NCBI GenBank assembly: GCA_964016885.1
Contig: OZ024742.1
Location: 230,702,001-230,766,000, forward strand
DNA: 64,000 bases
Reading direction: 5' to 3'
DNA from: Eledone cirrhosa
Lineage: Eukaryota
This document shows, one piece after another, positions 17,334 to 17,889 of the stretch (the first letter of the stretch is position 1; each line of letters begins with the position of its first letter). A program made the position numbers and the translations under genes. The notes under the pieces were generated by a model, which did not search any database, had not been told where the DNA came from, and was given only the letters and a program-made list of their open reading frames with translations.

Positions 17334-17889
17334 ATATGAGAGACGTAAAATAAGAAAATTATAAAATTAACTTACTTACTAAAATTTCACTTCCAACTAA
17401 TTAGTTTCTGAAATGGAATAAATATACTTTCCGAAGAAAATATAGAGAATCATTTCGTCGTCAGGGAAGACTATTCTCAGCTAAATATCCAGGCAAAACG
17501 TGGACTCTGGAAACTTATTCAAAAATAATTCAGTGGATAGAAAATAGCAAAGCGTGGACTGAATTCCTAGCCATTGAGAAAATTACTGCCTCTGCGTCGG
17601 TGGCAAATTCAAAAAGAATCAATCACGTGACATCGAGGTCAATCAGTGGAAAGTGGTTTGTTAATAAGACAGCGGCCTGCCTGCTACCATAGCAGCAGTC
17701 TTGGCCAATATTGCTCGACAAATAATTTGGAGATAATTATAAAGAATTAATATCTAGTAACATATATATACATACAGATGCATATCAATGTTAGCAAATA
17801 TATAGGTTTTGTCTTAGTAACTTTGTGGTTCAATGCATGGGGTTGCAGAACAATAATATGAGAGACGTAAAATAAGAAAATTATAAAAT
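17334..17889 (-). mobile_element. Retrozyme/pLTR-like element A (522-bp unit with 34-bp terminal direct repeat)
   Basis: atatgagagacgtaaaataagaaaattataaaat at 17334 and 17856; internal hammerhead; (TA)n both sides. Confidence 0.75.
17390..17469 (-). ncRNA. Type I hammerhead ribozyme
   Basis: cttcc CTGACGA c gaaatg...catttc a GAAA CTAATTAG TT ggaag; helix I cttcc/ggaag, palindromic helix III, GUU triplet. Confidence 0.8.

What the first reader, a model, noticed from the sequence alone, without database searches (positions are those of the whole stretch)
17334..17889. Element A: 522-bp hammerhead unit with terminal redundancy, consistent with a circular or tandem RNA template
One hammerhead (17390-17469, minus) lies inside a unit whose ends are a 34-bp direct repeat. 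This geometry is expected from reverse transcription slightly more than once around a circular RNA, or from a partial-tandem pLTR. A non-microsatellite 34-mer inside TA flanks is unlikely to be a target duplication (inference).
Basis: partly seen in the sequence, partly recalled or inferred. Interest (0 to 1): 0.75.

Follow-up and report, generated by a model that had tools for sequence, protein, structure and literature searches.

The report
Hammerhead retrozyme pasted Penelope-style
This is one of thousands of copies of a 522-base non-coding repeat that carries a predicted self-cutting RNA motif and sits in TA microsatellites, with the same two fixed end points and back-to-back layout as this genome's Penelope-type jumping genes, whose enzyme likely copies it, possibly from a small RNA circle.

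Summary
In detail: an exact 34-bp repeat 522 bp apart and a type I hammerhead at 17390-17469 (minus strand). The 34-mer is no target duplication. It is an internal part of a 522-nt unit with over 3,000 exact genomic hits. It is also no designed terminal repeat: overlaps in single-arm copies range from 16 to 2,020 nt.

Copies end, in RNA sense, at one of two sites 118 nt apart that abut (TA)n; their 5' ends are variable. Half the loci are head-to-head inversions, and 57 of 58 scorable ones pair one site with the other. A protein-coding Neptune-type Penelope element in this genome shows the same two-site footprint.

Best reading: a non-LTR retrozyme (non-autonomous Penelope-like element), inserted by target-primed reverse transcription, often from both cut strands on one RNA. 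A more-than-unit template is shown (163 of 184 arms cross the cut site). Circle versus uncleaved multimer is not settled (about 55:45), and no RNA data were available. The scan reported this architecture before for other families.

The parts
17334..17889 (-). Single-arm insertion of family A: 1.07 units of a 522-nt non-coding unit; in unit coordinates (u1 = 17394, first base after the cut) it runs u28 -> u522/u1 -> u61
17334..17367 (-). 3' copy of the 34-nt overlap (u28-u61); ends at start site 1 (u61, ...CUCUCAUAU), which runs into (TA)n; inferred reverse-transcription start
   Evidence: 1,257 exact site-1/(TA)n junctions genome-wide
17856..17889 (-). 5' copy of the 34-nt overlap; 5' truncation at u28, at an AT-rich microhomology with the TA tract, 27 nt downstream of the previous unit's cut site
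17390..17469 (-). Type I hammerhead: stem I 17469-17465 with 17394-17390; core CUGACGA 17464-17458; stem II 17456-17451 with 17415-17410, C-A mismatch at its base, long hairpin with UUCG loop; GAAA 17408-17405; palindromic stem III; GUU cut between 17395 and 17394 (predicted)
   Evidence: stem III region is self-complementary over 12 bp, -10.8 kcal/mol as a duplex
17738..17855 (-). 118-nt 'tail' between start site 1 (u61) and start site 2 (u179 = 17738, ...UUCUUUAUA); site 2 is internal and unused in this copy
17126..17333 (.). (TA)n/TATACA microsatellite, the target at the element's 3' end
17890..17900 (.). Short TA tract between element A and element B
17901..18637 (-). Neighbouring element B: unrelated 689-nt hammerhead unit (hammerhead 18191-18270), 48-nt overlap, same two-site footprint (u296/u423); used here as a control family

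Best explanation
This is one copy of a high-copy, non-coding 522-nt hammerhead repeat (a non-LTR retrozyme) that is likely pasted into (TA)n tracts by a Penelope-like (PLE) reverse transcriptase-endonuclease acting in trans. Shown: copies end at two fixed sites 118 nt apart that abut (TA)n, have variable 5' ends, run through the ribozyme cut site for up to about 4.9 units, and in half the loci form head-to-head pairs with one arm from each site, both arms sharing one haplotype. Inferred: the enzyme cuts AT-rich DNA, each cut strand primes cDNA at an internal AUAU/UAUA site of the same RNA, synthesis stops at a variable point, and the ends are joined to each other or, by TA microhomology, to the target. 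The window copy is one arm primed at u61 that ran 34 nt past one full unit. The template is most likely a monomer circle made by hammerhead cutting (probably as a dimer) and ligation (about 55%), with uncleaved or partly cleaved linear multimers as the alternative or a parallel route.
For: Copy number: 40 best matches 97-100% identical, 2,079 candidates; 3,065 exact 25-mer hits, reversed control 0. Ends, in 142 loci sampled by genome order of exact matches: 63 single arms, 70 simple inversions, 9 complex; 59 of 63 single arms end at u61 (40) or u179 (19), 54 of those 59 against TA; 57 of 58 inversions with both ends at these sites pair u61 with u179 (p 4e-16); 7 of 9 complex loci do too. Family B: 23 of 23 scorable among 28 inversions. 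A PLE with RT and GIY-YIG domains (L139) has 35 of 36 TA-abutting 3' ends at two sites, +80 and +149 from its own hammerhead-like cut, and 10 of 10 head-to-head pairs read from the listing are mixed. One template: tandem repeats within an arm differ by 2.18% and the two arms of a locus by 2.12%; 60 of 103 and 62 of 105 pairs have no discordance at 88 informative columns against 10.3 and 11.4 expected for random partners; rare alleles are shared in 13 of 91 and 12 of 85 loci. More-than-unit template: 163 of 184 arms cross at least one cut site, 42 cross two, 4 cross three. The sense strand is structured as a circle (z -3.95, 0 of 60 shuffles) and the antisense is not (z -0.31). Literature: two internal RT start sites defining the tail, both strands cut and extended (PMC11167929); tail at one end, inverted truncated copy, microsatellite bias (PMC8557442); retrozyme circles in coral, mussel and axolotl (PMC7229834).
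Against: No autonomous partner shares sequence with the unit: A-like hits in 3 of 50 GIY-YIG loci were separate insertions, and 1 of 84 5' flanks had a PLE protein hit, far from the junction. Self-cleavage is untested, and the C-A mismatch, the short palindromic stem III and an 8.9 kcal/mol cost of the active fold in the circle suggest a weak ribozyme; 8 of 9 Xenopus retrozyme dimers did not cleave in vitro (10.64898/2026.07.22.740005). Against a circle-only model: 5' ends are enriched in the 30 nt after the cut site (A: RR 1.57, p 0.044; RR 2.63, p 0.005 in arms that had already crossed one site, window chosen after seeing the data; B: RR 1.94, p 0.067; pooled 28 of 274, RR 1.69, p 0.009). 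The doubling of the stop rate in long arms cannot be tied to unit length. In PMC11167929 uncleaved RNA was the dominant substrate and priming needed no homology to the target, whereas here both start sites match the TA target over 4 nt. 12 of 70 inversions have at least one end elsewhere.
Confidence: 0.85

Rival explanations
1. Same element and enzyme, but the template is a linear multimeric transcript of a tandem source array whose weak hammerheads are mostly uncleaved; the ribozyme only sets some 5' ends.
For: Excess of 5' ends just after the cut site, which includes the window copy (u28); weak-looking ribozyme; uncleaved RNA works in vitro for the anole PLE (PMC11167929). A common absolute step at 420-460 nt fits the stop rate as well (LR 35.5-35.8) as a step at unit length (29.3) or unit minus tail (37.2).
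Against: No recurrent position-specific differences between neighbouring units, apart from one unstable column, u473, so source arrays would have to be homogeneous. No array longer than about 4.9 units was seen in 160 loci, and linear copying with 5' truncation and internal priming can only shorten arrays (inference). No shared non-microsatellite 5' flank of the kind read-through would carry was evident in 84 flanks.
Confidence: 0.4
2. The unit is simply the pLTR of an autonomous PLE, and these copies are its 5'-truncated insertions.
For: Same footprint as a coding PLE; Xenopus retrozymes are related to pLTRs (10.64898/2026.07.22.740005).
Against: Arms continue upstream into another copy of the same unit, up to about 4.9 units, and not into an ORF; no sequence match to the L139 pLTR outside TA-rich sequence. 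Origin from a pLTR long ago stays possible.
Confidence: 0.08
3. The 34-mer is a target-site duplication around a 488-bp insert.
For: Exact direct repeat at both ends.
Against: The 34-mer is part of the repeated unit, with 3,065 exact hits of a 25-mer from it; it lies inside arrays, and an unrelated locus (L161) has the same ends with different flanks.
Confidence: 0.01
4. A satellite spread by DNA-level recombination or rolling-circle DNA amplification, or an assembly artefact near microsatellites.
For: Tandem units; long TA flanks are hard to assemble.
Against: Dispersed over many contigs as short arrays with polarised ends: fixed 3' ends, variable 5' ends and a strict two-site rule in inversions; strand-specific RNA structure and compensatory changes in the hammerhead; the family is deeply covered in an independent set of sequencing contigs.
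Confidence: 0.04

Closest known systems
Metazoan non-LTR retrozymes (Cervera & de la Pena 2020, PMC7229834; Li, Clavereau & Pollet 2026, 10.64898/2026.07.22.740005)
   Same: Non-coding, AT-rich tandem unit with one type I hammerhead per unit, palindromic stem III, mismatch at the base of stem II (U-U in axolotl HHR_Amex2, C-A here), thousands of dispersed monomers and short arrays, structured RNA, PLEs in the same genome.
   Different: 522 nt is above the 170-400 nt of the circles shown in 2020 but inside the 51-972 bp range of 2026. The parts of those papers read here do not describe two fixed 3' ends, head-to-head pairs or TA targeting. Circular RNA and cleavage are not shown here.
Endonuclease-bearing Penelope-like elements (Penelope/Poseidon, Neptune, Nematis; PMC8557442, PMC4209133, PMC11167929)
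   Same: Hammerhead in the terminal repeat, partial tandems, inverted 5'-truncated partner, tail at one end only, two internal RT start sites, AT-rich or microsatellite targets.
   Different: No ORF; the tail is 118 nt against 30-40 nt; both start sites carry 4-nt TA microhomology; the unit is repeated directly on itself.
L1 5' inversion by twin priming (recalled, not from a call)
   Same: Two cDNAs primed from the two cut target strands give a head-to-head structure.
   Different: Here both priming sites are fixed and internal and the arms overlap widely in sequence; in L1 one primer is at the poly(A) tail, the other is variable, and the arms barely overlap.

Membership tests
Non-LTR retrozyme | Type I hammerhead in each unit | tested here: met
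   Descriptor hit; stems paired with compensatory changes in 137 distinct copies; 78 of 287 anchors lacked an intact core at the set distance (truncated or mutated copies, not examined one by one). No Rfam hit.
Non-LTR retrozyme | Short tandem repeats, with copies holding two or more hammerheads | tested here: met
   42 of 184 arms cross two cut sites, 4 cross three.
Non-LTR retrozyme | No protein, low GC, no LTR organisation | tested here: met
   No frame of 120 aa or more overlaps 17334-17889; AT-rich sequence; ends are not terminal repeats. PBS and PPT were not searched for.
Non-LTR retrozyme | Highly self-paired monomer RNA | tested here: met
   Circular fold -119.1 kcal/mol, 62% paired, z -3.95; antisense z -0.31; linear z -4.19.
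Non-LTR retrozyme | Self-cleavage | not testable with these tools
   Needs in vitro transcription.
Non-LTR retrozyme | Expressed as circular RNA | not testable with these tools
   No RNA run could be laid; DNA footprints are inconclusive.
PLE-mobilised element | Fixed 3' ends with a tail at one end only; 5' truncation; inverted partner | tested here: met
   same rule in a coding PLE of this genome.
PLE-mobilised element | AT-rich or microsatellite target | tested here: met
   54 of 59 single arms ending at the two sites abut TA; 1,257 exact junctions.
PLE-mobilised element | Sequence shared with the pLTR of an autonomous partner | tested here: inconclusive
   None found in 50 GIY-YIG loci of 10,597 first-look candidates or in 84 flanks.
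Autonomous PLE | ORF with RT and GIY-YIG domains | tested here: not met
Plant-type LTR retrozyme | Type III hammerhead in two LTRs, 4-bp target duplication | tested here: not met
   Type I topology; no fixed LTR pair.

The most novel reading that the evidence does not exclude
A Penelope-type enzyme copies one 522-nt ribozyme-made RNA circle from both cut target strands at once, each strand being assigned its own start site 118 nt apart. The genome's thousands of insertions are then a fossil record of rolling-circle twin priming, which would explain PLE tandems, inversions and the one-sided tail in a single mechanism.
Probability: 0.4. Interest if true: 0.68.

Novelty: new member of a known kind. 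Interest (0 to 1): 0.42.

Why it matters
How animal retrozymes are inserted, and why Penelope-like elements form tandems, inversions and a one-sided tail, are open questions; PMC8557442 names them as such. This family gives a small, non-coding, young substrate with exact predicted priming sites (u61, u179), a defined target ((TA)n) and a coding PLE with the same footprint in the same genome. It can be put straight into the in vitro assay of PMC11167929 as circle versus linear dimer. As a genomic feature it is an ordinary repeat, one of several such families in this genome.

Tried and rejected
Rfam: no hammerhead family hit at gathering or E<=10; the long stem II probably escapes the models (inference). 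Expression: no RNA holder listed; this says nothing either way. Contigs of two runs were laid: they cannot show starts or ends, and the one long-range joint back (17885 to 17398) is expected from genomic tandems. Target-duplication reading rejected. Search for the autonomous partner failed; the A-versus-L139 alignment score above shuffles lay in TA repeats and was discarded. A and B share no detectable sequence around the hammerhead (score 27 against shuffle mean 31.8). Test for a second lap on a circle: the stop rate doubles beyond one unit in A (RR 1.93, p 1e-4), best change points were 415 nt in A and 550 nt in B, but a common step fits as well as unit-scaled steps, so it was rejected as proof. 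Collision of the site-2 arm with the site-1 primer: pooled RR 2.73, p 0.012, but A alone RR 1.75, p 0.19; weak. Matching 5' breakpoints of the two arms: 10 of 57 within 15 nt against 5.1 by permutation, p 0.025; weak. A whole-unit covariation scan gave many pairs that reflect subfamily linkage only. Rows left out of the rate tests: the 9 complex loci of A and 2 of B, arms not ending at the two sites, pieces under 86% (A) or 84% (B) identity, the second copy in L176, and the 18 loci picked by best score (used only). An empty orthologous site could not be sought: the genome has no relatives in the tool. Literature searches listed no paper on twin priming in PLEs or on the two-site rule in retrozymes; this covers only the open library, and no supplements were read.

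Full report
Observation. The window has an exact 34-nt direct repeat at 17334-17367 and 17856-17889, spacing 522, between a long TA tract and a short one. A descriptor scan finds a type I hammerhead at 17390-17469 on the minus strand with a GUU cut triplet between 17395 and 17394. Rfam does not recognise it and the isolated region does not fold into it as its lowest-energy state. I number the unit in RNA sense with u1 = 17394, so the window copy runs u28 to u522, then u1 to u61.

It is a repeat family. The 40 best genomic matches are 97-100% identical over the full length, out of 2,079 candidates. A 25-mer from the 34-nt repeat occurs 3,065 times exactly, the reversed control 0 times. The 34-mer is therefore part of the unit, not a target duplication. 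No frame of 120 aa or more overlaps the element. The host genome is 3.0 Gb and rich in TA microsatellites; I did not identify it.

The hammerhead is under selection. Among 137 distinct copies with an intact core, stem I pairs 1-5 are 90-99% paired and stem II pairs 2-7 are 94-99% paired, with double-sided changes at two stem II positions; 78 of 287 anchors had no intact core at the expected distance. Sliding stem II by one keeps some pairing because of its A/U runs, so the double-sided changes are the real evidence. The first stem II position is a C-A mismatch in 134 of 137. Stem III is a palindrome that can form a 12-bp intermolecular duplex, the arrangement that PMC4209133 (parts 1-2 of 4 read) links to dimer-dependent cleavage. 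The whole unit is structured on the hammerhead strand only (z -3.95 circular, antisense -0.31); forcing the active fold costs 8.9 kcal/mol.

Ends. I sampled 142 loci from the first 100 listed exact matches of each of two patterns (fetched): 63 single arms, 70 simple head-to-head inversions and 9 complex loci. Of the single arms, 59 of 63 end in RNA sense at u61 or u179, and 54 of those 59 abut TA. Both sites end in a 4-nt AUAU/UAUA match to the target, but the unit has 21 such tetramer positions and only these two are commonly used, so more than microhomology selects them. The u61/(TA)n junction occurs 1,257 times exactly. 5' ends are scattered; where they meet TA they favour TATA/ATAT words (9 of 27 against 12.5%, p 0.004). 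Of 63 single arms 25 exceed one unit, with overlaps of 16 to 2,020 nt; two have 34 nt.

The two-site rule. In 58 of 70 inversions both outer ends lie at the two sites, and 57 of these 58 pair u61 with u179 (p 4e-16). The neighbouring, unrelated 689-nt family B follows the same rule at u296/u423 in 23 of 23 scorable among 28 inversions. A coding element with RT and GIY-YIG domains (L139), with the CxxxxCxxC linker that PMC8557442 (passages read) ties to the Neptune and Nematis clades, has 35 of 36 TA-abutting 3' ends at +80 or +149 from its own hammerhead-like site, and 10 of 10 head-to-head pairs in the listing are mixed. This matches the PLE tail present at one end only (PMC8557442) and the two internal RT start sites found in vitro, with both strands cut and extended (PMC11167929, parts 1-2 of 4 read). 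The footprint links family A to a PLE enzyme; no partner was found by sequence.

One template per insertion. In 160 loci, tandem repeats within an arm differ by 2.18% and the two arms by 2.12%, about half the median distance to other loci; 60 of 103 and 62 of 105 pairs agree at all informative columns against about 10-11 expected. Rare alleles are shared in 13 of 91 and 12 of 85 loci. Neighbouring units show no recurrent position-specific differences beyond one unstable column. If the two arms came from independent RNAs, most pairs should mix families; only two or three mixed joins were seen.

Circle or linear multimer. 163 of 184 primed arms cross at least one cut site, 42 cross two, so the template is either a ligated circle or an uncleaved multimer. 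For the circle: homogeneous units, no array above about 4.9 units in the sample, the need to regenerate arrays that truncation shortens (inference), and circles shown for retrozymes of coral, mussel and axolotl (PMC7229834, parts 2-4 of 6 and passages read). The stop rate doubles in long arms, as a second lap with strand displacement would give, but a common step at 420-460 nt fits as well as unit-scaled steps. For linear templates: a modest excess of 5' ends in the 30 nt after the cut site (pooled 28 of 274, RR 1.69, p 0.009), the weak-looking ribozyme, and the in vitro result that uncleaved RNA is the main substrate (PMC11167929). The window copy itself fits both: 34 nt past one lap, or 27 nt short of an upstream cut. 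I put the circle at about 55%.

Comparison and novelty. It works like a non-autonomous PLE and meets every testable feature of animal non-LTR retrozymes; cleavage and circular RNA are untested. That retrozymes derive from and depend on PLEs was proposed in PMC7229834 and argued by phylogeny in 10.64898/2026.07.22.740005 (parts 1-3 of 5 read). The two-site rule for a retrozyme was not listed in my five searches, and supplements were not read. Verdict: new member of a known kind, interest 0.42, with value mainly as a ready substrate for testing PLE and retrozyme insertion.

Noticed in passing
window 17901-18637: Element B, a second hammerhead family (689-nt unit, 2,798 first-look candidates, 3' ends at u296/u423, 127-nt tail), sits head-to-tail upstream of A with only about 11 nt of TA between them.
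   Followed up: yes
window 5454-5828: Head-to-head pair of a third hammerhead family (hammerheads at 5502-5572 minus and 5710-5780 plus).
   Followed up: no
window 16695-16844 and 35039-35256: Inverted pieces of a further repeat family flanked by TA, with copies in many fetched loci; in L215 its end is joined directly to the 5' end of an A arm.
   Followed up: partly
L045:1380-2330, L050:1379-1800, L221:270-1700: Head-to-head joins of an A arm with a different element: another hammerhead family ending at its own usual 3' end (L045), another hammerhead family running into TA (L050), and a 5'-truncated PLE-like ORF (L122/L221). Either two RNAs were used at one cut, or adjacent insertions were joined by deletion.
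   Followed up: partly
L071, L132, L136, L141, L142, L143: Several hammerhead families in this genome have a mismatch (U-U, A-A, C-A) at the base of stem II, like family A.
   Followed up: no
L008:589-1172, L016:682-1371, L102:1586-2255, L114:1692-2188, L139:2377-2672: Older relatives of family A at 70-79% identity, some ending at the same u61 site, show that the family has had several waves.
   Followed up: partly
L176:503-944 and 9066-9510: Two mirror-image A insertions with the same breakpoints 8 kb apart, probably an inverted segmental duplication.
   Followed up: no
run X4 laid on window 17340-17885: Nine low-depth contigs from a second organism cover 26 of 29 bins of the unit with many differences; a weak hint that a related family exists there.
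   Followed up: partly
window 33428-33615: Two tRNA-like matches in opposite orientation, probably tRNA-derived SINE heads.
   Followed up: no
L131:4809-7622, L133:1775-5062: Long open frames (938 and 1,096 aa) with RT and GIY-YIG matches, candidates for intact PLE enzymes.
   Followed up: partly
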